Notes under the pieces: generated by a model
Databases searched by the model: none
The model's input: only the letters and a program-made list of their open reading frames with translations
What the model was told of the DNA's origin: nothing
Shown here: one piece after another, positions 11,067-41,675 of the stretch
Layout of the letters: every line of letters starts with the position of its first letter
How positions within the stretch are numbered: the first letter of the stretch is position 1
IMG/VR virus record: IMGVR_UViG_3300025030_000039
Location: 188,878 to 252,877 of that record
From: a virus
Length of the DNA: 64,000 bases
Direction: 5' to 3' (one strand)
Program-made: the position numbers and the translations under genes

Positions 11067-11636
11067 TTATTTTATAATTTCATCTATAACTCCTAATCTA
11101 AGGGCTTGTTTACTATTCATAGTCCAATCAATTTTATGAGTGTAAATTTTCTTAAGTTGTTTTTTAGATATTTTAGTTTTTTCAAGAGTTATTTTCTCAA
11201 GAAGTTTTTGTAATCTTTTTGTTTCATAAAACTCTTCTTCCATATCTTTAGCTTTACCCCAGAAACCATTACTTATTTGATGATATAATGGTGTTGATAA
11301 TTCATAACCAAATCTCTTATGTCCATTTATTAATATCATAAATCCGCACGACATAGCACAACCTGTAACAATAGTATAAATAGGTGTTTTACTTGTATTC
11401 ATTATAGATAATAAACCAAAACATTGATATACCATTCCTCCATAAGAATCAATATAAATTTTAATTGGTTTACGTTTATATTTAACATAATCTATTGCAT
11501 ATACTTTGGTAAGACGATCGTCTTCTTCATTAATTTCAATTATTCTTTCAGTTAATTTACCTATTGATTCTTGATCAACTTGCTTATTAAAATACAAATT
11601 TCTACCTGTTGGAATTTCTAATTTATTTTCTGCCAT
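11067..11636 (-). CDS. clpP: ClpP-family serine protease (S14), possibly a phage prohead or ATP-dependent protease subunit
   Basis: IYIDSYGGMVYQCFGLLSIM...TIVTGCAMSCGFMIL holds the nucleophilic Ser. The His is in LYHQISNGFWGKA and the Asp in DWTMNSKQALRLGVIDEII. Order and spacing match the ClpP catalytic triad. Confidence 0.8.
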   Translation of the reverse strand: MAENKLEIPTGRNLYFNKQVDQESIGKLTERIIEINEEDDRLTKVYAIDYVKYKRKPIKIYIDSYGGMVYQCFGLLSIMNTSKTPIYTIVTGCAMSCGFMILINGHKRFGYELSTPLYHQISNGFWGKAKDMEEEFYETKRLQKLLEKITLEKTKISKKQLKKIYTHKIDWTMNSKQALRLGVIDEIIK

Positions 11637-11814
11637 AAAATTTTAAATTTATTATTTTATGGAAAATTAATATTTTGTTTAAATAAAATTTAATTAATTT
11701 AATCTTTATTTCAACATTAAATATTTTTTTAATTTTTTTAACATTGATTGTCCTAAGGCATTCATATTTAATTAATTATATATTATTATTTATATATTTA
11801 TGTTAGCAACAATA

Positions 11815-12183
11815 CTACAAACCGTACTTCGATTTAAGTTTTTCTAATTGCTCCAACTCAATCTTTTTAATTCTTTCCTTTTCTTGTCTATCTCGTTCAT
11901 CTTGTCTTTTTTGGTATTCAATTTCTTCTTGTTCACACGCTTGTTTGTATTCATTTTCAGAAATTAGACCCAAATCAACAAGTGGATGGTCGGTATTATC
12001 TTTACTATATTGGTTTATATTCACTTCATTTTTTGTGTATCCAAATCCTTCTGTAATATCATTAACAACCAATACTGTAAATGTGTTATCTGTAAATTTT
12101 AACCATAAATCGCCACAATCTAATTTCAAATCAGAGATTGTTTTTCCTTTCAATTCATTGATATTCTGTATTTCATTTTTCAT
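11815..12183 (-). CDS. hypothetical protein with a C-terminal charged coiled-coil (122 aa)
   Basis: Track ORF flanked by an 11-bp inverted repeat, TGTTAGCAACA at 11801-11811 and TGTTGCTAACA at 12215-12225. Confidence 0.45.
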   Translation of the reverse strand: MKNEIQNINELKGKTISDLKLDCGDLWLKFTDNTFTVLVVNDITEGFGYTKNEVNINQYSKDNTDHPLVDLGLISENEYKQACEQEEIEYQKRQDERDRQEKERIKKIELEQLEKLKSKYGL

Positions 12184-12237
12184 ATTATATAAATTAATCG
12201 TTTATAATCCGTACTGTTGCTAACACATTGTATATGT

Positions 12238-12310
12238 CGGTTTTGCCAATTGGCTTTTGTGCTTTTGTGCTTTGACTGAGAGTATGTGCGTGGCAAAACC
12301 GAACACATAC
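12238..12310 (-). other. GC-richer structured element with nested inverted repeats
   Basis: CGGTTTTGCCA (12238-12248) is the perfect reverse complement of TGGCAAAACCG (12291-12301). GTATGTG (12282-12288) and CACATAC (12304-12310) enclose the second arm. A CTTTTGTG tandem lies between them. The region is non-coding. Confidence 0.35.
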
Positions 12311-12340
12311 AACCATTCGTTATAAGTAATAAAATAAAAA

Positions 12341-12505
12341 CTACTTACTACTATTAATATCCTTAATCAAAATTTGAATTTCTTCATTTTTATTTTCTAA
12401 CTCTTTTTCAAATGCTTTTTGAAACTCAAACTTTTGTTCTTCACTTAACTCATTCAAATTTTGAATGTTAGTTTGTCTAATTTCTGCTTTAATTTTCTTT
12501 TCCAT
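12341..12505 (-). CDS. small hypothetical protein (54 aa, charged and helical), below the track cutoff
   Basis: Hand translation gives MEKKIKAEIRQTNIQNLNELSEEQKFEFQKAFEKELENKNEEIQILIKDINSSK with a TAG stop. It lies about 20 nt downstream of a minus-strand promoter-like motif. Confidence 0.35.
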   Translation of the reverse strand: MEKKIKAEIRQTNIQNLNELSEEQKFEFQKAFEKELENKNEEIQILIKDINSSK

Positions 12506-12522
12506 AATTTTACTGTTTTTAT

Positions 12523-12549
12523 TTTACATACTTATAACAACAAATATAA
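12523..12549 (-). promoter_or_regulatory. promoter-like motif on the minus strand, early-block variant (TTTGTTGTTATAAGTATGTAAAAT)
   Basis: The reverse complement is TTTGTTGTTATAAGTATGTAAAAT, about 20 nt before the ATG at 12505. The same motif recurs at 12900-12928, 15146-15173 and 18110-18135, and is related to the plus-strand TTTGTTATTATATTTA motif. Confidence 0.4.
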
Positions 12550-12589
12550 AACATTGCTGATGTAGTTTCTATTTATATTATACGTTTAA

Positions 12590-12655
12590 TTTCAAGTTTT
12601 GTTTCATTTATTTACATTCATGTTGCAACTTTTTATATTTGTAATCGTTATAGAT
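12590..12655 (-). repeat. ~65-bp element, inverted copy of 21940-22006
   Basis: The reverse complement of 12596-12643 matches 21951-21998 at 44 of 48 positions (ACAAATATAAAAAGTTGCAACATGAATGTAAATAAATGAAACAAAACT). Similarity extends a few bases on both sides. Confidence 0.55.
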
Positions 12656-12662
12656 AATAAAA

Positions 12663-12881
12663 TTAAAAATAGTCATGACTATCTATAAATAACTCCTTAT
12701 ATGTTTCATCAGTAAAAGAAAATCCTCTACCATCAACCGTCATTTCTACAACTTGCATCACTTTTAAGTAATTAATTATTGTGTCAAGTTCGTCTTCTAA
12801 TTCTTTACCTATTTTAAACATACTCATAGCTGCCATTATCTCACCAAGTCTTTCAATATTTTCTTTTACTTTCTCATCCAT
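12663..12881 (-). CDS. hypothetical protein (72 aa)
   Basis: Track ORF with a promoter-like motif 20 nt upstream, at 12900-12928. Confidence 0.4.
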   Translation of the reverse strand: MDEKVKENIERLGEIMAAMSMFKIGKELEDELDTIINYLKVMQVVEMTVDGRGFSFTDETYKELFIDSHDYF

Positions 12882-12899
12882 ATTAATTAGTATTTTTAA

Positions 12900-12928
12900 T
12901 TTTACATATCTATAACAACAAATATAAG
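12900..12928 (-). promoter_or_regulatory. promoter-like motif on the minus strand (TTTGTTGTTATAGATATGTAAAAT)
   Basis: Same family as 12523-12549. It sits immediately upstream of the gene starting at 12881. Confidence 0.4.
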
Positions 12929-12998
12929 AAATAAATCTTACTTTGTCTATTTTTTAATGAAAAGATTTACTTCTCATATTTGCAACCGTTAGGCATAA

Positions 12999-13190
12999 TT
13001 ATACTCTACCACTAAGGTAGTATTCTATTTCACTCTTACTAAAATCATCGGGCTTGTTTTTATAGTACTCCCTTAATTTTCCTTCGTGAACACCTTGTTC
13101 AAATGCCCATTTCATATCATCTAATGAATAACTACGCCTAACAAAGTATAAACGTAATGTTTTCAGTTTTTCAATCAATCTTTTTATCAT
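12999..13190 (-). CDS. hypothetical protein (63 aa)
   Basis: Track ORF. Confidence 0.4.
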   Translation of the reverse strand: MIKRLIEKLKTLRLYFVRRSYSLDDMKWAFEQGVHEGKLREYYKNKPDDFSKSEIEYYLSGRV

Positions 13191-13256
13191 ATTATTAAAT
13201 TTTGTATTTCAAATTAAGTTCAGTTAAACACTACGTTTATACTCAACTGTTATGGT

Positions 13257-13430
13257 TCATGCTAATCGCACAATTTGACGTTCATCTACTTGTGAAAAAC
13301 AATTTTCATTATATGGTTGTCCATCGTACCAAAATGAACTACAGTCCCATCTCGCAACATTCCATCCTTCGTAACTAAAATTATTAGGGCTAAATAAGTA
13401 TACCCAATAGTAACCTTCTTTTCTTTCCAT
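13257..13430 (-). CDS. small Trp/Tyr-rich hypothetical protein (57 aa), below the track cutoff
   Basis: Hand translation gives MERKEGYYWVYLFSPNNFSYEGWNVARWDCSSFWYDGQPYNENCFSQVDERQIVRLA. It looks more protein-like than the overlapping track ORF 13286-13573, which runs into a GC-richer non-coding stretch. Confidence 0.35.
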   Translation of the reverse strand: MERKEGYYWVYLFSPNNFSYEGWNVARWDCSSFWYDGQPYNENCFSQVDERQIVRLA

Positions 13431-13563
13431 TTTATTTTTATTTTAAGTTTAACAATCTGATTAATAAAGCACGAAACCATAACATTTGCTATATGTAACA
13501 CGGCTGAAAAGTCCGTACTATTTTGAGAATGTCTGCTATGCCGTGCTACACATATCATTTTCG

Positions 13564-13755
13564 TTATGAACAATGCTTAACGTCTGCCAACGCTATGTCA
13601 TGTCCACATTTTTTACATTTACCAACCATAATTAAGTGGTCGAAAGCATTGTTCATAACACCAAATAAATGAAATTTCTCTATTTCATCTATTGTCGGTA
13701 GTGCTTTTATTGTTACTTCTATACCACTTGGCAATTTTACTTTCATATTTTTCAT
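13564..13755 (-). CDS. hypothetical protein (63 aa; CKKCGH Zn-ribbon-like)
   Basis: Track ORF. Confidence 0.4.
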   Translation of the reverse strand: MKNMKVKLPSGIEVTIKALPTIDEIEKFHLFGVMNNAFDHLIMVGKCKKCGHDIALADVKHCS

Positions 13756-13913
13756 AGTCTATACCCATAGAACAAACCTTTCGCTTCGCAACACTAACAT
13801 CAGATATATTCAATTTTTTATTTGTATTATCCAAAGTTTCTTCTAAAATTTTACTCTTTTCCATTTTATTAAATTTTGTGTTAGAACTACGTATATGTAA
13901 TCATTATAGCCAA

Positions 13914-14264
13914 TTAAAGCACTGAATCATAATTGCTGCCTCTATCATCATAATCCCATTTAGAATCAAGCTCATAATATTCTTTTTTTGATTGTTGGTA
14001 TTCGATTCCTTTTTGCAATTCTTTAATTTGAGAATTAAGTTTATCTATTTTATTTTGCCTTTGCTCTGAAATGTATTTTTGTGCATCATTAACTGTTTTG
14101 AAAAATTTGTCGGAAGTCATAGATAAGCATATTCTCCAATTATACTCCGTACCAGCACTACGCAAAGACCTGACAAATGCGTAACTATCGGTTAATTTGA
14201 CGCAATCTCTTTCCCATATTCTAACTAAATCATCCTTTACAATATAAACTTTAAAAAACTCCAT
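13914..14264 (-). CDS. hypothetical protein (116 aa)
   Basis: Track ORF. Confidence 0.45.
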   Translation of the reverse strand: MEFFKVYIVKDDLVRIWERDCVKLTDSYAFVRSLRSAGTEYNWRICLSMTSDKFFKTVNDAQKYISEQRQNKIDKLNSQIKELQKGIEYQQSKKEYYELDSKWDYDDRGSNYDSVL

Positions 14265-14418
14265 ATCTATAAAATTAACTGACTATAACCCGTGGTATGG
14301 TTAGTTGCCGTGTTAGTACTAAATTTAAGCGTTACTACCCGCTTGTAATTTTCTGTAATTTGATAGGAAAGTAGCCCGCAATCGGCAACTAACCATACAA
14401 CCAACGTTATGATTAATT

Positions 14419-14598
14419 TTACTCAACCACTTCAAAGTCACCAACATTAATTGGGTGATATACACCCAACCCCTGACATATTGTAAATGTTCCATCTTCA
14501 TTAAATCCTTGATATGGCTCATCCTCTTCAAATATATCACCACTTTTAAATGTTGTCATATACCCCTCATAATCTTTTAGTAATTTAATTTTTTTCAT
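14419..14598 (-). CDS. small hypothetical protein (59 aa), below the track cutoff
   Basis: Hand translation gives MKKIKLLKDYEGYMTTFKSGDIFEEDEPYQGFNEDGTFTICQGLGVYHPINVGDFEVVE. It is preferred over the overlapping junk-like track ORF 14325-14543. Confidence 0.35.
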   Translation of the reverse strand: MKKIKLLKDYEGYMTTFKSGDIFEEDEPYQGFNEDGTFTICQGLGVYHPINVGDFEVVE

Positions 14599-14680
14599 AT
14601 TTTAATATTTAAGTAAAAAACTAACCATAACAAGGTGTATAAAACATAACCTAATTACAAATTTTAAATTAACCACGGAA

Positions 14681-14935
14681 CTATAATAGGTTATGTTTCA
14701 TACACCTAACCGTTAGCGGTAATTTAATAACAGTATTTTGAGCATCTTCATAGCTTTCAAATATCTTATTACATCTTGGACAAGAACAACAACCGTCAAC
14801 AACGGGTATAGCAAATAATTTTACTAAGTCAAATCGTAATTTTCCACATATTTCTCCTGTCATTTTTATATAATCAAGATTATCGTTATCAATTTTTACA
14901 TCACTTAATAATAAGTGTACTTCTTGTTCTGTCAT
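14681..14935 (-). CDS. hypothetical protein with CCSCPRC Zn-ribbon (84 aa)
   Basis: Track ORF. Its 3' end overlaps a CTAACGGTTAGG operator-like motif. Confidence 0.4.
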   Translation of the reverse strand: MTEQEVHLLLSDVKIDNDNLDYIKMTGEICGKLRFDLVKLFAIPVVDGCCSCPRCNKIFESYEDAQNTVIKLPLTVRCMKHNLL

Positions 14936-15290
14936 ATTTATAAATTTATTAGTTATTACTATTAATTCCGAACTGAGTATATCTGAGTGTCGTTATATGC
15001 AATAAAAATTATTTTTTGGATATTTTATATAACATTATAAATCCTATTAAAAAGTGATGGATGTTGTACAATTTGCCATTTCTATCAACTTCGCTACAAA
15101 AATATCCAAATCCTATTACAAATGGCAAAATCTTTATATTCATAATTTTTACAGTTTATAACAACAAATATAAGCAATTATTTTCATTACTTCCAAAATA
15201 AATGTTGTTTGTTAATATTAATTTTGTTCTTTTAATTAAGTTTCTACTAATTTTACTCAAATGTATATACCTGCAGACGTTAGCTGCCAT

Positions 15291-15482
15291 TTAAGGAAGC
15301 TCTGTAATAACATAGTTAATAGCCATGTTTATTTCTGTTTCAATTTTAAATCTATACCCATTAAGCTCATAAACATTTTCATCTTTCATTTTTTCTAAAC
15401 TAAACTTTTGCAATAGTTCATAAATCTGCGAAAGTGTAAGATTATTCACGTTGGCTTTTATGTTTAAGTTTATTGTCATCAT
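15291..15482 (-). CDS. hypothetical protein (63 aa)
   Basis: Track ORF. Its 3' end lies in a ~60-bp repeat shared with the 3' end of 16344-16550. Confidence 0.4.
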   Translation of the reverse strand: MMTINLNIKANVNNLTLSQIYELLQKFSLEKMKDENVYELNGYRFKIETEINMAINYVITELP

Positions 15483-15585
15483 AATAAAAAATGGTAGCTA
15501 ACATGATATATAAGCCATACAATGTTAAGGTTTATACTAATTTGATAGTGTCGGGTATGACTTATATACCCATTGTTAGAGTGCA

Positions 15586-15780
15586 TTATCTAAACACTCC
15601 TAAAAAATCTTTTAAGCAACTTTCGTTACATACGTAAAATATTTTATTTCCCTTAAAATAACATTCTGGCACTTTCATTGCTTTATGCTTTTTAATTTGT
15701 TTTTTACAACTTTCACAATTAACGCACTCTAACAAAGTATTAGCGTTATTGCCTTTCTTGCTTTCTGATAAGTTTTCCAC
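15586..15780 (-). CDS. Cys-rich hypothetical protein (64 aa; CVNCESC...C..C)
   Basis: Track ORF. Confidence 0.4.
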   Translation of the reverse strand: MENLSESKKGNNANTLLECVNCESCKKQIKKHKAMKVPECYFKGNKIFYVCNESCLKDFLGVFR

Positions 15781-15847
15781 ATTTTATATTTTAATGTTGT
15801 TAATAATTGTTTGTGATTGCGTTAACTCCAATACTCGACCATTAGGT

Positions 15848-16036
15848 TCAATCATTAATTTGTTTTGAATCTTCTATCATATTTTTGATTCGTTCTTTGA
15901 ATCTATGTTCGTATTCCTTATCAACTTCACCCAAGTCAGTTGTTTCAAGATATTTTTTAGGTAATCCTTTACCCATAGTTTCCTTGAGTTTATTTTGAAA
16001 ATACTCAAGTTCTTCGTTTGTGTTTTTATTTTCCAT
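15848..16036 (-). CDS. hypothetical protein (62 aa, charged)
   Basis: Track ORF. Preferred over the overlapping 15877-16077 frame, which has a junk-like composition. Confidence 0.4.
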   Translation of the reverse strand: MENKNTNEELEYFQNKLKETMGKGLPKKYLETTDLGEVDKEYEHRFKERIKNMIEDSKQIND

Positions 16037-16343
16037 ATTTTATATTTTTTTACAAAGGTAAAACAAATTAATGACAAAACCTAACAAATGATAAACAACA
16101 TTAAAACATTCGTTTATCTGCAACCGTTATAAAACAGTTTGCTTAAAAAAGTTTTCCACATTTTATACATCTAACCAAATAAGCACCAACCTCAAACTTT
16201 TCAAATTCGTGTTTGCAAACAGATTTTATAACAGGTATATCCAATTGCTTTTTTTGTTTTCTAAATAAACATTTTCACAATTTTTTCATCTTGTATTTCA
16301 ATTTAATTTTTACTAATTTTACGCAACTATATACCTGCAGCCT

Positions 16344-16550
16344 TTATAGTGCATTAAGGAAGTCCTCAGCATCCTTCACACTAAAGCATTTTGTGAATTT
16401 ACCTGTATTTTCATTCAACACTATTACAAAATCAACTGCTCCGTAATTAAATGCCAATTTAGTTGCTTCAATATCAAACACACATAAAGCATTATACTTT
16501 GGTATTACGGGTTGACAATCTGAATATTTTTTATCTAAAATTCTTAACAT
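16344..16550 (-). CDS. hypothetical protein (68 aa)
   Basis: Track ORF. Confidence 0.4.
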   Translation of the reverse strand: MLRILDKKYSDCQPVIPKYNALCVFDIEATKLAFNYGAVDFVIVLNENTGKFTKCFSVKDAEDFLNAL

Positions 16551-16876
16551 AGTTTTAAGTATTAACTTACTATAACAATGTGTATATGTAATGCAGCCAA
16601 TAAGTTAATTGTAAATTGAAAGTATATGCAAGACAAACCGACATCATACCGCCAGCCATTATAGCCAATTAAAAAGTAACACCATTATCATATCCAACCT
16701 CTATTGATATATTTTCAATTTCAGTATTTAATATTTGTGCTATCTTTTCTTTTAGTTCGATTATCTTGGTTACATCAATCATTACATCTTTGTAAACAGA
16801 AATTGAAATTAGTTCTTTTTCATTCATATTATCTAAGCAAACATTCTCATATACTTAACCATTATAGATAATGAAA

Positions 16877-17167
16877 TTAAATATCCTTAAAAAGTCTTCT
16901 TGGTGCTACTAATCTTCTACCATCATCACATTTAATAATATATTCACCATCAGGTTCTATAACAGTATCTAAAACATTATAAATATTACCAACTGTTATT
17001 GGAAAATTTGGGTTTGGATTTTCCGTACATAGAACTTGTTTAAGCATAAACTTATTATTAAATGTTCCATAAATATCTGAATTAACTATTTTAATTTCAC
17101 TATCTATAGCATCAGATATATGTAATTTTTCATCTTTTTTCATAATACTATTTTTATTAGTTAACAA
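16877..17167 (-). CDS. hypothetical protein (96 aa)
   Basis: Track ORF. Confidence 0.45.
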   Translation of the reverse strand: MLTNKNSIMKKDEKLHISDAIDSEIKIVNSDIYGTFNNKFMLKQVLCTENPNPNFPITVGNIYNVLDTVIEPDGEYIIKCDDGRRLVAPRRLFKDI

Positions 17168-17173
17168 AACAAC

Positions 17174-17587
17174 TTAATACGCCTTGTTATGTTTGTACGC
17201 CCTTGTTTGATTATAGAGCATTTTCAATTCGATATGCTTTTCAATATCAATGTTTCTTTGTCCTATAAAATCGAGCAATCTAATAAATACGTCTGCAATT
17301 TCATCTTCAAAAGTATCCTTTACCTGAGTTCTGAAAATTTCCTCAAACTTTATCATATCGTTTTCTTTTGCTGCCAAATCTAAATCTTCTCGAATAGTTT
17401 TGCCGTCAATAATAAATTCAGCATCATCAATTTTGGCATATTGTCCTTTTCTATCAGCTTCCAAAGCCTCAGATAATTCAGAAACCATAAGCATTAATAA
17501 AGTACCTGTTTCTCTTGGTTCGTCCCAAAAACCCTTTGCCTTTGCTCTTTCATGAAAATGTTTTGCTAATTCGTTTAAATTATTCAT
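17174..17587 (-). CDS. mazG: MazG-like all-alpha nucleoside triphosphate pyrophosphohydrolase
   Basis: The EExxE core LMLMVSELSEALEADRKG and a downstream acidic/aromatic helix are typical of phage MazG-like NTP-PPases. The gene is locally GC-richer. Confidence 0.7.
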   Translation of the reverse strand: MNNLNELAKHFHERAKAKGFWDEPRETGTLLMLMVSELSEALEADRKGQYAKIDDAEFIIDGKTIREDLDLAAKENDMIKFEEIFRTQVKDTFEDEIADVFIRLLDFIGQRNIDIEKHIELKMLYNQTRAYKHNKAY

Positions 17588-17609
17588 ATTATTTTATCTT
17601 TTAAGTTTT

Positions 17610-18026
17610 TTAAAAATTTATTACAGACAGATCTAAATAATATTGTGGATCTGCATAGTCTTGAATTTCAGAAACTAATCCATTAAATTTCATTTTAAAA
17701 TCTCTATTTATATTTATAAGGTAAACAATTCTTCCATGTGGTTTTATGGAATACCTATCTCCTTCGATATTTTCAACTGAGCGATTTTGCATTAAAACAT
17801 ATCCACCAATTGTTAATGCAATATCATCAATCATTTTTTCTTTATCCCCAATTTCTTCATGCCAAGGTATTGCAACTAAATCTAAATCTCTATTCATTGA
17901 GCCATGCACAATAATATTATATCCATATTTTAAACCTATTTCTTTTATTATTTCAAAGTAAAATGAATATAAATTTGGTTTAGCATGAATTGGTTTAATG
18001 TCTGTTATAGGATTTGTTGTATTCAA
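17610..18026 (-). CDS. hypothetical protein with possible minimal nucleotidyltransferase motif
   Basis: IIVHGSMNRDLDLV resembles the GS...[DE]hD core of the pol-beta nucleotidyltransferase superfamily. The match is weak. Confidence 0.4.
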   Translation of the reverse strand: MNTTNPITDIKPIHAKPNLYSFYFEIIKEIGLKYGYNIIVHGSMNRDLDLVAIPWHEEIGDKEKMIDDIALTIGGYVLMQNRSVENIEGDRYSIKPHGRIVYLININRDFKMKFNGLVSEIQDYADPQYYLDLSVINF

Positions 18027-18109
18027 ATATTTATTAAATAAAATTTTATTATTAAATTATATAACCAAAATTAATTATGTTTATAATTTAATCAATTTTT
18101 ATATTTTTA

Positions 18110-18135
18110 ATTTTACATACTTATAACAACTATTT
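18110..18135 (-). promoter_or_regulatory. promoter-like motif on the minus strand (TAGTTGTTATAAGTATGTAAAAT)
   Basis: Same family as 12523-12549. About 85 nt upstream of the gene starting at 18026. Confidence 0.35.
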
Positions 18136-18213
18136 TTACACTTAATCGTTAGTAACAATATAAAAATAAAGTTTGTAGAATAACCGATACAGACTCAATA
18201 TTATTAAAAGAAT

Positions 18214-18645
18214 TTAAATAAAATCATATTTCATAATTATCTTATTATCGATTTCTTTAACAACAGTCCATCCCATTTTTAAATGATATTCTTTTGCAAA
18301 AACTGTATCTAAAAATATAGTTTTATATCCTAATAATTTTGCATATTCAAATCTTTTTTCAGTTAACATCAATCCATATCCATTACCTCTATATTCTGGT
18401 TCAACCCATAACAATAAATTCCAGGGAGATATAGTCCTATCTATTTCATTAATAGTATCAAATAATCCACAACCTATAGGTTTATCATCTATTATCAATA
18501 CATAACAAACTGAATCAGATTCATTATTTAAATACCTTCTAATCTCACTTAAACTATATTCATCATCAACTTGCCAACGTTCTTTCATAATAGATGAAAC
18601 ATAATTAATATACATGTGAGTTAATTTTTCTATTTTAATTTCCAT
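18214..18645 (-). CDS. GNAT-family N-acetyltransferase
   Basis: VLIIDDKPIGCGLF and the WVEPEYRGNGYG (R/QxxGxG/A) acetyl-CoA-binding motif, followed by YAKLLGYKTIFLDT. Confidence 0.7.
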   Translation of the reverse strand: MEIKIEKLTHMYINYVSSIMKERWQVDDEYSLSEIRRYLNNESDSVCYVLIIDDKPIGCGLFDTINEIDRTISPWNLLLWVEPEYRGNGYGLMLTEKRFEYAKLLGYKTIFLDTVFAKEYHLKMGWTVVKEIDNKIIMKYDFI

Positions 18646-20066
18646 TCAAATTTATAATTGCCTGTTCCAAAACATCTATAATATCCCTTATCATGCATTA
18701 TCTCCACTTCAGTCATCAAGGAATCTGCTCCTTCTTTTACCAATTTATCTTTACGATATTTAAACCTATTCTCCCTAATTCCATCTACTACCCACCAATA
18801 ATTCAAACCAGTATGCACTATATATTCAAACCCTAATTTTGTATATAAATTATCTTGCTCATCAACCGTCCAATCACAATCTGCATAACTTACTACTCGT
18901 TCAGGTTTATACTCTTTAATAAAATATTTAAATAAACGACTGGCTCCACCAACAACCGAAGTATTTAATTTATTAGCAAACCGTAAAAGCTCCCATTCAT
19001 TTTCTTTAGCAACTTGATTTAAATTTTTACGTAAGGATCCGAAGGTCATTAATGATACTAACTCACCTTCATAATATAAACCTAATTTAATAGCAGCATT
19101 AGTATTGCCCTGTAAATGGTTCCTATTTAAAAATTCTCTACTATCACCAGAATTAACGGTTTTAATTACACATTTTCTAGCATACACTTTATCAGTAGAT
19201 AAATTTAATAAATTCTTTATTCTTGATTTTACTATATCTCTTTTGTTATACCAAACATCTTCCCATATATGTATTAAATTAATTCCCAATTCTTTGCATC
19301 TATTACTTTTATCTATATGATATTCTTTAGGTTTATTAAATTCATTATGCCAATATACTCCATTATGTTCAAATGCTATATTTTTATCTTCAATATAAAT
19401 ATCAAGTTCTCTATTTTTTAATTCTTTTTTAGAATTAATTCTAAATGGTTTTAAATAAATGTCTTTTATCCAATCTATTAATTCTATTTCAGAATTACTT
19501 TTTCCGTGATTAGGATTACATTTTAAACATGGATTAATATTTATATTTATTCTTCTATATAATAATTGAGAATCTATTATTGATATACTTTTACATTCAA
19601 CACATTCTATTTTTATTTTTTGTTGATCATCCCATTCTATTATTTTAATTTTATCTTTTAATTTTTCTTTAGCAAAAGGAAAATAATATTTATCTTTAAA
19701 ATAATTTGATTGTGTTATATGTTGTACTCCATATCTTTTTAGAACTGTTATTCTTGTTCTTTTTTCTTTTAAAACTATTGCACATTTTCTACTACAGCTA
19801 GAAGAATAACCAGGCATTATACCCATAAATTTAGATGAAGGTATTTTATTACCACATACTTCACATTTTGGAATTTCAGTTTTATCATGTAATGCATGAT
19901 AAAGTTTTTCTTTAAAAGACGTTAATTTTAGATTATTATTTATAGAATATTTTTCTATTTCTAATAATAGATTAGGATAATTATTTTTAAAAAATTCAAT
20001 TCTAGTAGTACTAGATGTAAGTTTTCCGTTTTTTATTAATATTTTATTTAAATCATTTGATAACAT
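18630..20066 (-). CDS. three-part fusion protein: N-terminal Cys clusters, DUF559/Vsr-like (PD-(D/E)XK-type) endonuclease core, C-terminal GNAT-like fold
   Basis: CEVCGNKIP...CSRKC Zn-ribbon-like clusters. ELDIYIEDKNIAFEHNGVYWHN....LGINLIHIWEDVW matches the DUF559 and very-short-patch-repair-like nuclease pattern. The C-terminal GLYYEGELVSLMTFGS...ELLRFA...VVGGASRLFKYFI...YTKLGF looks acyltransferase-like. Confidence 0.5.
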   Translation of the reverse strand: MLSNDLNKILIKNGKLTSSTTRIEFFKNNYPNLLLEIEKYSINNNLKLTSFKEKLYHALHDKTEIPKCEVCGNKIPSSKFMGIMPGYSSSCSRKCAIVLKEKRTRITVLKRYGVQHITQSNYFKDKYYFPFAKEKLKDKIKIIEWDDQQKIKIECVECKSISIIDSQLLYRRINININPCLKCNPNHGKSNSEIELIDWIKDIYLKPFRINSKKELKNRELDIYIEDKNIAFEHNGVYWHNEFNKPKEYHIDKSNRCKELGINLIHIWEDVWYNKRDIVKSRIKNLLNLSTDKVYARKCVIKTVNSGDSREFLNRNHLQGNTNAAIKLGLYYEGELVSLMTFGSLRKNLNQVAKENEWELLRFANKLNTSVVGGASRLFKYFIKEYKPERVVSYADCDWTVDEQDNLYTKLGFEYIVHTGLNYWWVVDGIRENRFKYRKDKLVKEGADSLMTEVEIMHDKGYYRCFGTGNYKFEWKLK

Positions 20067-20104
20067 TTAATTATATGGTTAATTATTATTATGTTTAATA
20101 AAAT

Positions 20105-20983
20105 TTAAACATAATCACCTTCCTGTATTTCAGGTAACTCTCCCATCTTATTTCTATACAATAATGTAATCATCGGTAAATTTACCCATCTTAAATCCTT
20201 CTCAACTAATTGATTTTTAATACGTTCAAGAATGTCCCTGTCACTTCCCCGAGGTTCGCTGCGTACTGGTGAAGTAAGAAATTGCTCTCTTACATTTCTA
20301 TATCTTAAATCCTTAAATTCCTTCAAATCCCAACAAAATGTTGAATGCCAACTTTCTGTTATATGAGAAATATTATTCCCCCCTATATGTTTAACAACTC
20401 CTCTTTCTGGTCTACAATATGTATCTGTTCCTGTTTTATATCTTTTTATTATAGCTGTCGAAGAAAAGAATTTTGCTTTAGGATATCTAGTTATTGCCTT
20501 AGCCATATATTCTAGATGGTTAGGAAGCCATATATCATCGTGATCTAAACGACAAATAAAATTTACACCATCCCTTACTGCTTTATCAATAGCTATATTT
20601 GCAGCAACATCAGACCCTGAATGCCAAAGATCTGCCCCCCTGAATCGGATCCTTTCACCTGGCAGTTCCAGATTTTCATATACGATTTTTGAGTATTCGA
20701 ATGATTCAACTAAAGGCTTGATTTCATTATCACTTTCATAGTCATCACCCATTAGATAAATTTTGTAGTTTTGGTATGATTGGTTTTTGATAGATTGAAG
20801 AGCTTCTTGTAATCTCATAGGAGTAGTACCATCGCTTCTTTTATAGGTAGCAACTATAATACCAAATCTTATATTTGTTCTGTGTTCTATTTTTTTGAAT
20901 TTATCTATTTTATCCGATAAATCATTTTGTTTATTTTGATCTTCTTGATTAAAATTTTGAAAATTTTCTAATAAGGTGTCCAT
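20105..20983 (-). CDS. family 2 glycosyltransferase (GT-A fold)
   Basis: FGIIVATYKR, the QSYQNYKIYLMGDDYE acidic motif and the DHDD DxD-type motif. Confidence 0.7.
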   Translation of the reverse strand: MDTLLENFQNFNQEDQNKQNDLSDKIDKFKKIEHRTNIRFGIIVATYKRSDGTTPMRLQEALQSIKNQSYQNYKIYLMGDDYESDNEIKPLVESFEYSKIVYENLELPGERIRFRGADLWHSGSDVAANIAIDKAVRDGVNFICRLDHDDIWLPNHLEYMAKAITRYPKAKFFSSTAIIKRYKTGTDTYCRPERGVVKHIGGNNISHITESWHSTFCWDLKEFKDLRYRNVREQFLTSPVRSEPRGSDRDILERIKNQLVEKDLRWVNLPMITLLYRNKMGELPEIQEGDYV

Positions 20984-21363
20984 AAAAATATTATTTGAAT
21001 ATATATTTGGAATTTTAATTTTATTTTAAACTTTTTTATTATATTTAAATTTAATAATATTTAGTTATATGAATCAAAATTTAAAAATATTAATAAAATG
21101 AGAACAATAAAGGCACAGAAGACTTAATTACTGGTATAATTATTGAAATGAAAAACGAAGACAACTTTGAAAGAAAAGCTGCACAGCGAATAATCGAAGC
21201 ACTAACAGATGAAAATAATTTGAATATACCCCCAGTTATCGTTTCAATTTGCGATGGTCTTTTGTTTGAATGTACTGATAGAGAAACAATACATAACGAA
21301 TGATGCGTTTATTCTCGTTGCCGTATTAGGAGCAGAAATTATTAACCATAAAATAAACACAAT

Positions 21364-21591
21364 ATGAAAAAAGGAACTTCAAATAAGCAGAAAGCAGGCA
21401 ATAGAATTAAACGCAATGTTATAAAATTGTTGCCCGACCGGAGAATTTATGATGAATACACATTTATAATTGGAAGTATGCAACACGGAACATCCTACAT
21501 GGGTAAATCGGACGAAACTATAAAACACCACGACAATATAATCGCATGGCTTAAAAAACGTAGAGAGGAGTTTAAGGGCAATGTTTTATAA
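21364..21591 (+). CDS. hypothetical basic protein (75 aa)
   Basis: Track ORF in a locally GC-richer stretch. Confidence 0.35.
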   Translation: MKKGTSNKQKAGNRIKRNVIKLLPDRRIYDEYTFIIGSMQHGTSYMGKSDETIKHHDNIIAWLKKRREEFKGNVL

Positions 21592-21664
21592 CGGACGGCG
21601 GTTGGCTTTCGTTGCCGATGCTCGATTAACGACAAATGATTATTAATAGTAAAAATTTAAAATT

Positions 21665-21892
21665 ATGCAGACAGATTCTAAAAACCAAATAGGCAATGAA
21701 GCTAATACCATGTTATGTGAAGTGTATTTTGTAAAAAAAGGTAAAAAGTTTATGAAAGGACATGGATATAGCACATTAAAAGGATATAAATTTAGTTGGA
21801 CTTTCAATAAAAACGAAGCAAGAAAAATGGAATATAGCACAGCAAATAGTTTAGCAATTTCAAGCGGTGGTGTATTGAAACAACAACTATAA
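21665..21892 (+). CDS. hypothetical protein (75 aa)
   Basis: Track ORF. Preferred over the antisense 21643-21900 frame, which is F/L-rich and junk-like. Confidence 0.35.
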   Translation: MQTDSKNQIGNEANTMLCEVYFVKKGKKFMKGHGYSTLKGYKFSWTFNKNEARKMEYSTANSLAISSGGVLKQQL

Positions 21893-21939
21893 ATGGTCAA
21901 TTAGTAGAAATTCCACGCTACGACCCTCTTTATTATTGT

Positions 21940-22006
21940 GGCTAACGGTTGCAAATATAAAACGTTGCAACATGAATGTAATTAAATGAAACAAAACTTG
22001 AAAAAA
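21940..22006 (+). repeat. ~65-bp element, inverted copy of 12590-12655; contains CTAACGGTTGC and GTTGCAAC
   Basis: GGCTAACGGTTGCAAATATAAAACGTTGCAACATGAATGTAATTAAATGAAACAAAACTTGAAA. It lies about 90 nt upstream of the RlmN-like gene. Confidence 0.55.
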
Positions 22007-22090
22007 TGCTCGAATAACCACGGATGCCCAACTGTTTTATACCATATGTTAGCGGTAGTGATTTTTTAACTTATTAATATTTAACGATTT

Positions 22091-22978
22091 ATGAAAACAA
22101 AAAGATTTGATAGTTCAGAAGGTAATGTTTGGAAATATGTATTTGACTTTGAAAATGCAGTTGCCGAAGCGGTACTTTACAAATATGAAAACTTTTACAA
22201 AAGGACTGTACTTTGCGTGAGTGTGCAAAGTGGATGCCCTGTTGGTTGCAAATTTTGCGGAACTGGCAAAAAGTTTATTAGAAACCTTACAAACTTAGAA
22301 ATAGTTGCACAGGTTAAACATTGCTTAAAAGACATGAATATTGAAAATGTTAATTCGGCTAGTGATCGTTTCCAAATAATGTTTATGAGTATGGGTGAAC
22401 CTACTTTAAATATTGATAATGTAATAACGGCAATAAAGGATTTAAACAACTTATATCCAAATGCTGAATTACTTATTTCAACTATGGGGGCAAAAAACAA
22501 TACCGCTTTTGAAAAACTGTTAAAAGTAAGTATTGAAATACAAAAGGTTGGTTTGCAATTTTCAGTACATGAAGCATTTGAAGAAAAAAGAAACCAATTA
22601 ATATCATTTAAAAATAAATTGAATTTACGTGAAATGCGTGATTTTGGCATTGAGTGGAATAGGCAAACAAAACGCCCTGTATATGTGAATTATTGCATTG
22701 GAGAAACAAACCAAAGCAATGAAGAGATGGATAGGCTTAAAGACTTATTTAGCCCTGCTCTTTTCAATTTTACATTTTCGGTTATTTGCTCTTCTGATGA
22801 AAACATGAAAGATAAAGGATATAGAGAACTGAACAAGATAAACACAATTACTTCATCATTTGTTGAATGTGGTTATAATGTTCGAGTTTTCGACCCTGCT
22901 GGTCAAGATGATATTGGGGGCGGGTGCGGACAATTATGGTATGTACAAAACTGGATGCGTGACCATCATTACCGCTAA
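22091..22978 (+). CDS. RlmN/Cfr-family radical SAM RNA methyltransferase-like protein
   Basis: SVQSGCPVGCKFCGTG is the CX3CX2C radical-SAM motif in an RlmN-like context. FMSMGEPTLN and the C-terminal DIGGGCGQLWY resemble the conserved RlmN/Cfr Cys motifs. Confidence 0.8.
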   Translation: MKTKRFDSSEGNVWKYVFDFENAVAEAVLYKYENFYKRTVLCVSVQSGCPVGCKFCGTGKKFIRNLTNLEIVAQVKHCLKDMNIENVNSASDRFQIMFMSMGEPTLNIDNVITAIKDLNNLYPNAELLISTMGAKNNTAFEKLLKVSIEIQKVGLQFSVHEAFEEKRNQLISFKNKLNLREMRDFGIEWNRQTKRPVYVNYCIGETNQSNEEMDRLKDLFSPALFNFTFSVICSSDENMKDKGYRELNKINTITSSFVECGYNVRVFDPAGQDDIGGGCGQLWYVQNWMRDHHYR

Positions 22979-23095
22979 CATAAATATATAAATAATAATA
23001 TATAATTAATTAAATATGAATGCCTTAGGACAATCAATGTTAATAAAATTTAAAAAATATTTAATGTTGAAAAATTATTTAATTTTATAAAATAA

Positions 23096-23746
23096 ATGGA
23101 ATATAACGATAAAAATGGATTAGAATTAATAGCTGAATTAGCTAAAGTTAGTACTGATAAGCTAATGAATTTAACTATTTTAATACTAAGTAGTAATAAA
23201 TTGACTTCTATACCAAAAGAGATAGGATTACTTACTAATTTAAGAGAATTACGTTTATCCAATAATGAATTAACATCTGTACCAAAAGAGATAGGAAATT
23301 TGGTAAATTTACAACATTTACATTTAAATAGTAATAAATTAACTTCTATACCATTAGAAATATTTAATCTTATAAAATTAACTAAATTATTATTATATAG
23401 TAATAAATTGACTTCTATACCAAAAGAGATAGGAAATTTAATAAATTTACAGCGTTTATTTTTAAGTTATAATGCATTGACTTCATTACCTAAAGAGATA
23501 GGAAATTTGGTAAATTTATGTGAATTACTATATACAAATACTAAGATGGTTTCAATACCTATTGAGTTAGTTAAGTTAAATGTTTTTCCAAAGTTAGATT
23601 TATCAGAATTAACTCTGCCGTTATGGGCTGAATTATTTCAAGAAGATAAATTTAAAGTTATTAAGCATAAAGATTTTCCAAAAGATTTAAGAAATCATCC
23701 ATGGTTTATTGATGTAGCTTATGCAGATGATTTTGGACTTATTTAA
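23096..23746 (+). CDS. leucine-rich repeat protein (bacterial-type LRR)
   Basis: At least six tandem 23-aa repeats of the form L(T)SIPKEIGNLVNLQ.L.L..N. Confidence 0.8.
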   Translation: MEYNDKNGLELIAELAKVSTDKLMNLTILILSSNKLTSIPKEIGLLTNLRELRLSNNELTSVPKEIGNLVNLQHLHLNSNKLTSIPLEIFNLIKLTKLLLYSNKLTSIPKEIGNLINLQRLFLSYNALTSLPKEIGNLVNLCELLYTNTKMVSIPIELVKLNVFPKLDLSELTLPLWAELFQEDKFKVIKHKDFPKDLRNHPWFIDVAYADDFGLI

Positions 23747-24296: not shown

Positions 24297-25445
24297 TTAT
24301 TCTATATTTGGATAATTAAAAAGTTTATTTTGATAGTTTTTAAGAATAAGATTTCCATTTTCATCTTTACCTTGATAGTATTCAGGAAGAATAGGAATTT
24401 TACCTCCTCCACCTGGAGCATCAATTACAAAGGTAGGTATAGCATAGCCTGAAGTATTACCTCTAAGATTAAACATTATTTCTATTCCTTTTTCGATTGA
24501 GGTTCTAAAATGTTCTGAACCTAGAATTGGATCACATTGATATAAATAGTACGGTCTAACTCTAACTTTAAGTAATTCATGAAATAATTTTTTAAGAATT
24601 AATGAGTCATCATTAATTCCTTTAAGTAATACCGTTTGAGATCCTAATGGAATTCCAGCATTTGCTAATAAGTTGCAAGCTTGTTTTACTTCAGGAGTAA
24701 TTTCATCTGGATGAGTAAAATGTATACTCATAAAAAGAGGATGATATTTTTGTAGAATATTTATTAGTTTTTTGTTTATTCTTTGTGGAAGTATAACTGG
24801 AACTTTGGTTCCAATTCTTATTATTTCAATATGTTTGATATTTCTAATAGTTGATAATAAATAATCAAGTTGTGAATCAGGTAAAGTTAATGGATCACCG
24901 CCAGAAATTATTACATCTCTTATTTCAGTATGTTCTCGCAAATAATTAAAAGCAGATTCCCAATTATTTAAATTTTTTTCTTTTGCTACAATATGAGAAC
25001 GTGTACAATATCTACAATATGTTGCACAAAAATCTGTTGCTAAAAATAAAACTCTATCTGGATATCGATGTATAATATTAGGTACCGGATTATCTTCATT
25101 TTCATTTAATGGATCTGATAATTCACCCTCATTTATATAATATTCATTTACAATCGGAATAACGCTTTTTCTTAATGATTGCAATGAATTATTTTTATCT
25201 ATTAAGCTAGAATAATAAGGTGTTATTCTTATAGGTAATGAATCTTTATTATTATCATTTATAGATTTTTCATTATCATTTAAATTAAAAAAATCATTTA
25301 ATTGTTTAATGTTTGTAATACTATTTTTTATTTGCCATCGCCAGTCATTCCACTGTTCTTTTGATGTATTAGGAAAATTTTCTTTTAAATATTCTATTGA
25401 TTTTTCACTAGGTTCTATAAGTGAGATATCATCATTTTTGTCCAT
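24297..25445 (-). CDS. KamA-family radical SAM aminomutase-like protein (lysine 2,3-aminomutase / EpmB family)
   Basis: N-terminal WNDWRWQIKN, LATDFCATYCRYCTRS (CX3CX2C in the KamA context) and C-terminal GGGGK. Confidence 0.8.
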   Translation of the reverse strand: MDKNDDISLIEPSEKSIEYLKENFPNTSKEQWNDWRWQIKNSITNIKQLNDFFNLNDNEKSINDNNKDSLPIRITPYYSSLIDKNNSLQSLRKSVIPIVNEYYINEGELSDPLNENEDNPVPNIIHRYPDRVLFLATDFCATYCRYCTRSHIVAKEKNLNNWESAFNYLREHTEIRDVIISGGDPLTLPDSQLDYLLSTIRNIKHIEIIRIGTKVPVILPQRINKKLINILQKYHPLFMSIHFTHPDEITPEVKQACNLLANAGIPLGSQTVLLKGINDDSLILKKLFHELLKVRVRPYYLYQCDPILGSEHFRTSIEKGIEIMFNLRGNTSGYAIPTFVIDAPGGGGKIPILPEYYQGKDENGNLILKNYQNKLFNYPNIE

Positions 25446-28742: not shown

Positions 28743-28760
28743 TTCTAAATTTTTATTTTT

Positions 28761-28782
28761 AAAACTTTTTTATTATATTTAC
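28761..28782 (+). promoter_or_regulatory. class A promoter-like motif (AAAACTTTTTTATTATATTTAC)
   Basis: Identical core to 1781-1802. It sits 18 nt before the ATG at 28800. Confidence 0.45.
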
Positions 28783-28799
28783 TTTTAAAATAAAAAAAT

Positions 28800-33326: not shown

Positions 33327-33450
33327 AAGAATAAAATTTGAAATTTATATTTTTGAATTATATGTAAATTTAATAAAAAAGTTTAAAAAATAAAAAAATT
33401 TTAATACATTCTTTTTCAAAAAATTATTTGATAACTAATATTTTAAATTT

Positions 33451-41673: not shown

Positions 41674-41675
41674 TC

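What the first reader, a model, noticed from the sequence alone, without database searches (positions are those of the whole stretch)
12590..22006. ~65-bp inverted-repeat pair bracketing the 12.6-21.9 kb block, pointing outward
12590-12655 (minus orientation) and 21940-22006 (plus) share ~90% identity over about 50 bp (..ACAAATATAAAA[A/C]GTTGCAACATGAATGTAA[A/T]TAAATGAAACAAAACTTGAAA). They are the longest non-coding similarity in the window and both contain CTAACGGTT/GTTGCAAC. One sits just past the 3' end of the long minus-strand gene block and upstream of a small ORF plus the ClpP run. The other sits upstream of the RlmN-like gene. They look like a duplicated strong regulatory region, promoter plus operator, used at two outward-facing transcription units. 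Alternatively they are the scars of a rearrangement or inversion of the intervening 9 kb.
Basis: seen in the sequence. Interest (0 to 1): 0.5.

Follow-up and report, generated by a model that had tools for sequence, protein, structure and literature searches.

The report
Repeated portable hairpin spacer flanking swapped genes
The 71-bp inverted repeat is real, but it is two copies of a portable hairpin-forming spacer that many uncultured phages place between genes, and one copy was cut in half when a foreign RNA-methylase gene was recombined in; it is neither an inversion scar nor a special twin promoter.

Summary
The repeat is confirmed: 12590-12660 (-) and 21933-22003 (+), 71 nt at 89% with a 53-nt core carrying 2 mismatches, and only these two copies in the 462-kb phage genome (LR756500.1). 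It is not the longest non-coding similarity. A second, nested inverted pair ("arm B", 11688-11807 / 22974-23093, 120 nt, 92%) lies about 0.8-1 kb outside it.

Each locus reads arm A - unrelated gene cassette - arm B - backbone gene, and the B pair coincides with the edges of a GC-richer island of small ORFs.

Arm A belongs to a family of discrete intergenic elements of about 100-135 nt, bounded by terminal inverted repeats (ATAACGGTTGCAAATAT ... ATATTTGTTGTTAT) that fold as long hairpins. Full-length copies are A-L and one in an unrelated metagenome contig (L102) that shares no proteins with this phage. A sister element occurs nearly unchanged in 19 IMG/VR contigs.

Arm A-R is only the left half. 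It ends exactly where a 976-nt RlmN/Cfr-like cassette begins, and that cassette is 90% identical to one in another phage (L095).

The arms are therefore PeSL-like linker or punctuation elements at crossover points of modular gene exchange. They are inverted only because they sit on opposite sides of a divergent transcription switch. No recombinase is present and there is no evidence of inversion.

The parts
12590..12660 (-). Arm A-L: the left copy of the reported repeat. It is the left TIR plus most of the loop of a full-length intergenic hairpin element.
12532..12665 (-). Full-length A-type intergenic element. The left TIR is at about 12626-12654 (TATAACGATTACAAATATAAAAAGTTGC) and the right TIR at about 12533-12560 (GCAATGTTTTATATTTGTTGTTATAA). 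It is 91.8% identical over 134 nt to L102:4202-4335, which lies between unrelated ORFs.
21933..22003 (+). Arm A-R: the right copy. It contains the left TIR (GCTAACGGTTGCAAATATAAAACGTTGC) and the loop up to CTTGAAA only, and lacks the right TIR of the A type.
22004..22060 (+). Right half of a different hairpin element, of the L095 type, ending in GTTAGCGGTAGTG. Together with arm A-R it forms a chimeric element whose crossover lies in the loop at ACTT(T)GAAA.
22004..22979 (+). RlmN/Cfr-like radical-SAM cassette: leader, the ORF at 22091-22978, and the GCTAAC box. It is 90.3% nt and 97% aa identical to L095, with no similarity outside these limits.
22974..23093 (+). Arm B-R: a second repeated intergenic element that starts with GCTAAC, whose TAA is the radical-SAM stop codon. 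It lies directly upstream of the LRR gene at 23096-23746.
11688..11807 (-). Arm B-L: the inverted copy of arm B, upstream of ClpP (11067-11636).
11800..12225 (-). 122-aa ORF module (ORF 11815-12183), 95.8% nt identical to L101. It is bounded by TTAGC on the 5' side and GCTAAC on the 3' side.
12318..12555 (-). 54-aa ORF module (ORF 12341-12505), 95.4% nt identical to L104. Its edges lie in the right TIR of the A element and at the TATAACG box of the next IGR.
12879..13002 (-). Sister element 'IGRb', with the same outer TIRs as arm A and a 22-bp stem (z = -4.4). It is found in 19 IMG/VR contigs at 84-100% identity.
12184..12325 (-). Neighbouring IGR that forms a long hairpin (-33.4 kcal/mol, z = -3.2), starting after a TATAACG box and ending in GTTAGC.
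11808..22973 (.). Compositional island of small ORFs between the arm B copies. It is 27.9% GC against a genome mean of 24.3%, has its own intergenic motif set, and lacks the backbone upstream motif.

Best explanation
The two arms are copies of one member (the 'A type') of a family of portable intergenic palindromic elements. A complete element is about 100-135 nt. It starts a few bases after, or overlapping, the stop codon of the upstream gene with a left terminal inverted repeat (T)ATAACGGTTGCAAATAT. It has a variable loop and ends with the complementary right repeat ATATTTGTTGTTATA about 25-45 nt before the next start codon. On the sense strand the two repeats pair into a long hairpin. The left arm of the finding belongs to a complete element. 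The right arm is only the left repeat plus about 45 nt of loop. At CTTGAAA it is joined to the right half of a different element that came in with an RlmN/Cfr-like radical-SAM gene cassette. A second repeated element (arm B) follows each cassette, so both loci read A - cassette - B - backbone gene. Shown here: the discrete element boundaries; the chimeric junction; the cassettes being shared with otherwise unrelated phages; and the family being widespread. Inferred: (i) these elements act as linker sequences at which the phage recombination system exchanges gene modules, as PeSLs do in T4-type phages; (ii) on the mRNA the hairpin punctuates cistrons, by processing or insulation of the RNase III-site or attenuator type, possibly with an associated promoter-like TATAAC box. 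The inverted geometry is incidental. Both copies point the same way as transcription and lie on opposite sides of a divergent strand switch.
For: Anatomy: the three-way and four-way alignments show that A-L and L102 are full length, that A-R stops at CTTGAAA, and that the diverged L122 copy keeps both TIRs perfectly while its loop differs. Hairpins: IGRb z = -4.37, 14270-14418 z = -3.21, 15483-15585 z = -3.59, 12184-12325 z = -3.17. The same TIR-to-TIR pairing is predicted in A-L, L102, IGRb and its copies. Junctions: L095 matches the window only over 22004-22979, and L101 only over 11800-12225. The 3' junction in all four sequences lies at a shared GCTAAC, and the 5' junction at ACTT(T)GAAA. 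L095's own upstream IGR is an intact hairpin (-45.8 kcal/mol), whereas the window's is a weaker chimera (-23.3). Portability: none of the 15 ORFs of L102 has a homolog in the 462-kb genome, yet its IGRs match island IGRs at 80-92%. L103-L105, L095 and L101 share only a few proteins with it, at 29-48% aa. IGRb has exact 31-mer matches in 19 IMG/VR contigs with unrelated flanks. Most island IGRs have homologs scattered over those contigs. The box is positioned 4-19 nt after stop codons at about 10 island IGRs, and TAACG is 5-fold enriched in island IGRs. The backbone upstream motif TTATTATATTTA (40 sense, 5 antisense) is absent in sense orientation from the island. Sense-strand folding is favoured by 7-14 kcal/mol in several elements. 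The PeSL concept and crossovers inside stem-loops are described in PMC2839356 and PMC4122927.
Against: No transcript data exist, so promoter, terminator or processing roles are all inferred. The A-type hairpin itself is AU-rich and not significantly more stable than shuffles (z = -0.4 to -0.6). The sense/antisense asymmetry is neutral for A and B. Arm B has no homolog outside this genome, and its membership of the family rests on a weak TIR resemblance seen by eye. How both A and B came to be duplicated at two loci is not resolved; the options are an inverted segmental duplication followed by cassette replacement, or two separate exchanges. No canonical sigma-70 promoter is present.
Confidence: 0.7

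Rival explanations
1. Twin regulatory region. The 71 nt is a promoter-plus-operator duplicated so that two outward-facing transcription units (54-aa ORF ... ClpP on the left, RlmN-like ... on the right) are co-regulated by one factor binding GTTGCAAC.
For: Both arms have the same orientation relative to the downstream genes and nearly equal spacing to the next ATG, 84 against 87 nt. The GTTGCAAC palindrome is present in both. The arms begin with a TATAAC/GCTAAC box that in L097 sits in a promoter-like position before a GGAG ribosome site. Only two copies exist in the genome.
Against: In the diverged family member L122 the loop, including GTTGCAAC, is not conserved, whereas the TIRs are. The first TTGCAA half-site is degenerate in A-L. 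A-R is a truncated half-element fused to a foreign leader, so its 3' edge is a recombination breakpoint and not a functional boundary. The left locus has the rest of the element between the arm and the ATG, while the right does not. The sigma-70 consensus scan is at chance level.
Confidence: 0.15
2. Invertible or inverted segment. The arms are the crossover sites or scars of an inversion of the DNA between them, either site-specific or by homologous recombination between the inverted copies.
For: Two nested inverted pairs (71 nt and 120 nt) do bracket the region. 112 nt at 94.6% is long enough for phage homologous recombination (inference). The short-read assembly breaks at arm B, so its arrangement across B is unverified.
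Against: No invertase or recombinase was found among the island ORFs. Independent contigs cross both A arms only in the reference arrangement. The arm edges coincide with cassette junctions shared with other phages, which inversion does not explain. The sequences between A and B differ completely at the two ends. The same element occurs singly in other phages.
Confidence: 0.05
3. MITE-like mobile elements. The hairpin elements are non-autonomous transposable units with terminal inverted repeats, moved by a transposase or nuclease acting in trans, rather than being passively spread by homologous recombination.
For: The units are discrete, with TIRs of 14-25 nt and abrupt loss of similarity exactly at both ends in about 20 unrelated contexts. 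Copies are near-identical (up to 100% over 82 nt) in contigs of 24-35% GC. There are two copies within one contig in L103 and L117. A multi-copy homing-endonuclease-like gene family is present in the genome.
Against: No target-site duplication is evident by eye in the 21 aligned copies. The elements always sit in one orientation at the same place relative to stop and start codons, which fits selection for function plus recombination better than random insertion. No empty-site/filled-site pair was found or sought. Chimeric elements with crossovers inside loops and inside TIRs (A-R; L114 and L116) point to homologous or microhomology exchange.
Confidence: 0.1

Closest known systems
PeSLs (promoter-early stem-loops) of T4-type phages (Arbiol et al. 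2010, PMC2839356; Comeau et al. 2014, PMC4122927)
   Same: Both are conserved intergenic cassettes of about 100 bp containing a stem-loop. Both are concentrated in ORFan-rich hyperplastic regions and oriented with transcription. Both flank genes that are inserted, deleted or replaced between phages. In both, crossovers have been mapped inside the element, including the loop.
   Different: No canonical sigma-70 -35/-10 pair is present. The stem is a long (12-22 bp) AU-rich pairing of the two element ends, not a short G/C stem. The elements are shared at 90-100% identity among phages that share almost no proteins, not just within a closely related pair. The host phage is a 462-kb uncultured phage whose T4 affiliation was not tested. 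Mini-circles are untested.
Morons / modular 'linker sequence' theory of phage mosaicism (as discussed in PMC2839356)
   Same: Single genes with their own flanking signals appear in unrelated phage contexts. Examples here are the RlmN/Cfr-like gene, the 122-aa ORF and the 54-aa ORF.
   Different: Here the junctions fall at conserved flanking elements. This is the linker model rather than the random illegitimate recombination proposed for morons.
Bacterial MITE-type intergenic repeats such as Neisseria Correia elements (from my own knowledge, not tested here)
   Same: Both are short (100-150 bp) elements with terminal inverted repeats. Both are located between genes, are transcribed into hairpins, and have reported promoter and RNase III-substrate properties.
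   Different: No TA target duplication or transposase link was shown here. The phage elements have a fixed orientation and fixed position relative to coding sequences.
RNase III processing hairpins between phage T7 early genes (from my own knowledge, not tested here)
   Same: Both are long irregular hairpins of about 20 bp in the intercistronic regions of a co-directional run of small early-type genes.
   Different: No cleavage data exist for this phage. The T7 sites are not portable repeated cassettes shared among unrelated phages.

Membership tests
PeSL (T4-type promoter-early stem-loop cassette) | Intergenic location inside an ORFan-rich hyperplastic region | tested here: met
   The arms and their sister elements lie between small ORFs of unknown function in a GC-shifted island.
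PeSL (T4-type promoter-early stem-loop cassette) | Strong sigma-70-like early promoter (-35, -10, AT-rich upstream region) | tested here: not met
   The consensus scan is at chance level (98 found, 97.8 expected). No acceptable -35/-10 pair could be found in the arms by inspection. Only a TATAAC/GCTAAC box with a T-rich upstream tract is present.
PeSL (T4-type promoter-early stem-loop cassette) | Stable stem-loop within the cassette | tested here: inconclusive
   Sister elements fold significantly (z = -3.2 to -4.4). The A-type element has the same geometry but z = -0.4 to -0.6. A-R alone keeps only a 7-bp local hairpin that is absent in A-L.
PeSL (T4-type promoter-early stem-loop cassette) | Association with insertion, deletion or replacement of flanked genes, with crossovers inside the element | tested here: met
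   The cassette limits coincide with the arm edges. The chimeric A-R/L095-type element has its junction in the loop.
PeSL (T4-type promoter-early stem-loop cassette) | Host genome is a T4-type myovirus; mini-circle intermediates exist | not tested
   The phage's hallmark genes were not examined. Mini-circles need inverse PCR on infected cells.
Site-specific invertible segment (Gin/Hin/Cin-type or shufflon) | Recombinase gene in or next to the segment | tested here: not met
   Pfam, PHROGs and NCBIfam give no serine or tyrosine recombinase among the island ORFs.
Site-specific invertible segment (Gin/Hin/Cin-type or shufflon) | Both orientations observed in a population | tested here: inconclusive
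   Only the reference arrangement is seen across the A arms in an independent assembly. The contigs break at arm B. No read-level data are available.
MITE / TIR transposable element | Terminal inverted repeats with discrete ends | tested here: met
   The TIRs are ATAACGGTTGCAAATAT / ATATTTGTTGTTAT, and similarity stops at both ends in about 20 contexts.
MITE / TIR transposable element | Target-site duplication and empty/filled alleles | tested here: inconclusive
   No duplication is evident by eye in the aligned flanks. Empty sites were not searched for.
Known structured RNA family (Rfam) | Match to a curated covariance model | tested here: not met
   There are no hits at gathering score in the window, and only chance-level hits in E-value mode around both loci.

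The most novel reading that the evidence does not exclude
The arms belong to a previously undescribed, widely disseminated family of TIR-bounded hairpin elements. These elements move, or are exchanged, between very different AT-rich uncultured phages, including ~460-kb ones. They deliver a ready-made intercistronic signal in front of any ORF, and they act as the standard docking sites for gene-cassette exchange. In effect this would be an integron-like or PeSL-like cassette system operating across phage lineages that share almost no proteins.
Probability: 0.35. Interest if true: 0.65.

Novelty: new variant of a known kind. Interest (0 to 1): 0.42.

Why it matters
Huge phages carry large blocks of small genes of unknown function, and how such blocks are assembled and renewed is poorly understood. 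Here the junctions of three laterally exchanged gene modules can be read to the base, and they fall in or at the ends of a conserved portable hairpin element. One of the modules is an RlmN/Cfr-type rRNA methyltransferase, a family relevant to ribosome modification and antibiotic resistance. If these elements are general docking sites, they offer a sequence handle for finding accessory-gene cassettes in metagenomic phage contigs. They also give a testable mechanism for gene flow between distantly related phages. For the finding as originally stated, the result is deflationary: the inverted geometry has no special meaning.

Tried and rejected
- Chance or low complexity: rejected. The expectation in shuffles is 0, and the independent assembly is identical.
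- Generic dispersed promoter: rejected for the whole arm. There are only 2 copies in 462 kb, no copies in IMG/VR or in GTDB genomes, and one in JGI metagenomes.
- Known RNA family, tRNA or tmRNA: none found.
- Conserved RNA structure within the 71 nt: rejected. Z-scores are -0.6 and +0.4, and the 7-bp hairpin of A-R is broken in A-L.
- Bacteroidetes-type TAnnTTTG promoter: I first read the 'TTATATTTGTTG' box this way. The motif is not enriched in sense orientation genome-wide (43 sense, 61 antisense), and the box turned out to be the right TIR of the hairpin.
- Sigma-70 promoter and intrinsic terminator scans: at chance level.
- Paralogy of the flanking genes as the source of the repeat: rejected. 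The cassettes and outer genes are unrelated.
- Synteny with relatives to test inversion: not possible. No close relative of the backbone exists in IMG/VR (best ClpP match 67% aa), and relatives of the cassette genes share no neighbours.
- Small peptides encoded in the arms (MNVIK/MNVNK; 19-24 aa in arm B): considered by eye only. The few substitutions are non-synonymous and nothing supports them, so I did not pursue this.
- Replication origin: the cumulative GC-skew minimum (~20.6-21 kb) tracks the strand switch, not the arms' midpoint (~17.3 kb).
- Stop-codon recoding as a cause of the small ORFs: rejected.
Full report
**Observation**

The window is part of LR756500.1, an unannotated 462,018-bp 'uncultured phage' assembly. 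Window position 1 is record position 388,074.

The reported repeat exists. Its arms are 12590-12660 and 21933-22003, 71 nt at 89% complementarity, or 61 nt at 93.4% by blastn. The pairwise alignment shows sharp edges, a 53-nt core with two mismatches, and unrelated flanks. A 40-nt core allowing 3 mismatches is expected 0.00 times in dinucleotide shuffles. Two independent Logan contigs (L012, L014) are 100% identical to the window across both arms.

The arm occurs exactly twice in 462 kb. No other phage record carries it.

When every upstream region is laid out in gene orientation, a second inverted pair appears. This 'arm B' lies at 11688-11807 and 22974-23093, 120 nt at 92%, or 112 nt at 94.6%. 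It is nested 0.8-1 kb outside the reported pair, so the reported pair is not the longest non-coding similarity in the window.

Read in the direction of transcription, the two loci are:
- Left, minus strand: arm A, 54-aa ORF, hairpin IGR, 122-aa ORF, arm B, ClpP.
- Right, plus strand: arm A, RlmN/Cfr-like radical-SAM gene, arm B, LRR gene.

The 782-nt and 970-nt interiors are unrelated. Genes run on the minus strand up to about 20,983 and on the plus strand from about 21,148. Two elements that each point the same way as their genes are therefore necessarily inverted on the DNA.

The GC content steps from about 21% to 25-33% between about 11.9 and 23.0 kb, that is, between the arm B copies. The island is 27.9% GC against a genome mean of 24.3 +/- 1.4%, which puts it in the top 2% of windows of that size.

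The block encodes no recombinase. It has about 20 small ORFs without family matches, a GNAT acetyltransferase, a family-2 glycosyltransferase, and a homing-endonuclease-like gene with about 9 paralogs in the genome.

**The arms mark junctions of exchanged modules**

I retrieved relatives of the cassette genes from IMG/VR.
- L095 (33.8% GC) matches the window only over 22004-22979, 976 nt at 90%. This is exactly from the base after arm A-R to the first bases of arm B-R.
- L101 (35.7% GC) matches only over 11800-12225, at 95.8%.
- L104 matches only over 12318-12555, at 95.4%; this is the 54-aa ORF module.

None of these contigs shares neighbouring genes with the window.

At the 3' junctions, window-R with L095 and window-L with L101 remain homologous up to a shared GCTAAC and diverge immediately after it. 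At the 5' junction, homology to L095 begins at the ACTT(T)GAAA that ends arm A.

**What arm A is**

A scan of JGI metagenome contigs for the arm core found one contig, L102. It matches the window only in intergenic pieces, including a 134-nt block at 91.8% that covers arm A-L and the sequence downstream of it. None of its 15 ORFs has a homolog anywhere in the 462-kb genome.

The three-way alignment shows that A-L and L102 are full-length copies of one element, whereas A-R is only its first 71 nt.

Folding shows that these intergenic regions are discrete palindromic units. A left terminal repeat, (T)ATAACGGTTGCAAATAT..., begins 4-19 nt after, or overlapping, the upstream stop codon. It pairs with a right terminal repeat...ATATTTGTTGTTATA, located about 25-45 nt before the next ATG.

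Several sister elements fold far better than shuffles:
- 12882-12998: z = -4.37
- 15483-15585: z = -3.59
- 14270-14418: z = -3.21
- 12184-12325: z = -3.17

The A type has the same geometry, but its AU-rich stem is not significant on its own (z = -0.4 to -0.6).

A diverged fourth copy in L122 keeps both terminal repeats perfectly while its loop differs. Constraint therefore lies on the stem. The near-identity of the loop in the two window arms reflects recent common descent, not an operator.

L095's own IGR upstream of the radical-SAM gene is an intact hairpin (-45.8 kcal/mol). The window's counterpart is a chimera with an A-type left half and an L095-type right half ending in GTTAGCGG (-23.3 kcal/mol). 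The crossover that brought in the radical-SAM cassette thus lies in the loops of two elements, at a short shared ACTT(T)GAAA.

**The family is widespread**

The sister element IGRb (12879-13002) has the same outer repeats as arm A. It has exact 31-mer matches in 19 IMG/VR contigs (21 copies), on contigs of 14-465 kb and 24-35% GC. Conservation runs from one terminal repeat to the other and stops abruptly. The coding sequences on either side are unrelated from contig to contig.

Most other island IGRs also have homologs scattered over these contigs. Within the genome, TAACG is 5-fold enriched in island IGRs, and 5 of the 8 intergenic GCTAAC sites lie there. The backbone's dominant upstream motif, TTATTATATTTA (40 sense, 5 antisense), is absent in sense orientation from the island.

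**Mechanism**

Shown:
- The arms are copies of a portable TIR-hairpin intergenic element.
- One copy is a recombination-truncated chimera.
- The genes between arms A and B are modules shared with otherwise unrelated phages.

Inferred:
- The elements serve as linker sequences for homologous or microhomology-mediated module exchange. This is what was demonstrated for PeSLs in T4-type phages, where crossovers were mapped inside the stem-loop (PMC2839356; PMC4122927).
- On the mRNA, the hairpin acts as intercistronic punctuation. Sense-strand folding is favoured by 7-14 kcal/mol in several elements because of G·U pairs, which points to an RNA-level role. It is neutral for A and B.
- The TATAAC/GCTAAC box could additionally be a promoter-like element. 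In L097 the same box sits after a T-tract and about 20 nt before a GGAG site.

I cannot distinguish a processing site, an attenuator or terminator, and a promoter without transcript data.

How both A and B came to be present at two loci is unresolved. The simplest path is an inverted duplication of an A-cassette-B segment of about 1 kb, followed by replacement of its interior at the two short shared motifs.

**Rivals**

- A co-regulating twin promoter/operator is weakened by the L122 loop divergence, by the degenerate dyad in A-L, and by the chimeric nature of A-R. It is not excluded, because both arms start with the promoter-like box and sit at nearly the same distance from an ATG.
- An invertible segment lacks a recombinase and any observed alternative arrangement. 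Homologous flipping between the 112-nt B copies is untested because short-read contigs break there.
- A MITE-like transposition model fits the TIRs and the discrete ends. It lacks target duplications or empty sites, and it does not explain the fixed orientation and position.

**Comparison and novelty**

The system works like PeSLs and like the classical 'linker sequence' model of phage modular evolution. It fails one PeSL-defining feature, the sigma-70 promoter. It also differs in hairpin type and in being shared almost unchanged among phages with almost no protein similarity.

I rate it a new variant of a known kind. The element family behind it is moderately interesting.

Noticed in passing
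window 11688-11807 and 22974-23093: A second, longer inverted repeat pair (120 nt at 92%; 112 nt at 94.6%) lies nested outside the reported one. It sits upstream of ClpP and of an LRR gene and coincides with the edges of the GC-richer island. It has no homolog outside this genome.
   Followed up: yes
window 18630-20066 (and record 182-262 kb): The 478-aa homing-endonuclease-like gene (PHROG 3339; weak REase_MTES_1575 and Mom-like Pfam hits) has about 9 paralogs across the genome at 70-82% nt identity, so it is a proliferating mobile gene family.
   Followed up: partly
window 12184-12325, 14270-14418, 15483-15585: These intergenic regions form very stable long hairpins (z = -3.2 to -3.6) with different stem sequences but the same placement, between a TAACG box and the next gene. 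They are GC-richer than the rest of the phage's intergenic DNA.
   Followed up: partly
whole genome (e.g. window 20984-21147, 28741-28792, 33346-33428): The backbone upstream motif '...AAAACTTTTTTATTATATTTA...' is present before about 40 genes in sense orientation and 5 in antisense. Shine-Dalgarno-like sequences are rare (25 of 666 genes). This is probably the phage's main promoter class, and it is absent from the island.
   Followed up: partly
window 40293-41981 vs record 367252-368961 and 382621-382967: A 1.7-kb inverted duplicate (87% nt) of the region holding the 440-aa ORF at 40351-41673 is the strongest repeat in the genome.
   Followed up: no
window 23096-23746: The leucine-rich-repeat gene has internal repeats and paralogs at record positions ~13.4-15.1 kb, ~181 kb, ~199 kb and ~332 kb (66-73% nt).
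   Followed up: no
window between ~52 and 56 kb: The window and the GenBank record LR756500.1 differ by a 124-bp indel. The coordinate offset changes from 388,073 to 388,197.
   Followed up: no
window 24297-25445 and 22091-22978: Two radical-SAM genes lie close together: a KamA-family lysine 2,3-aminomutase-like gene (E = 1e-136) and the N-terminally short RlmN/Cfr-like gene. The latter travels as a lone cassette found in six IMG/VR contigs at 49-97% aa identity.
   Followed up: partly
L117 (IMGVR_UViG_3300023174_000033, 464,605-bp contig): Another ~460-kb phage contig carries two copies of the IGRb hairpin element within 600 nt. It may be a relative of LR756500 and would be worth a full comparison.
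   Followed up: no
L114, L116 vs L119; L110, L115: Some IGRb copies have truncated left or right terminal repeats with the same downstream gene but different upstream flanks. These are further examples of crossovers inside the element.
   Followed up: no
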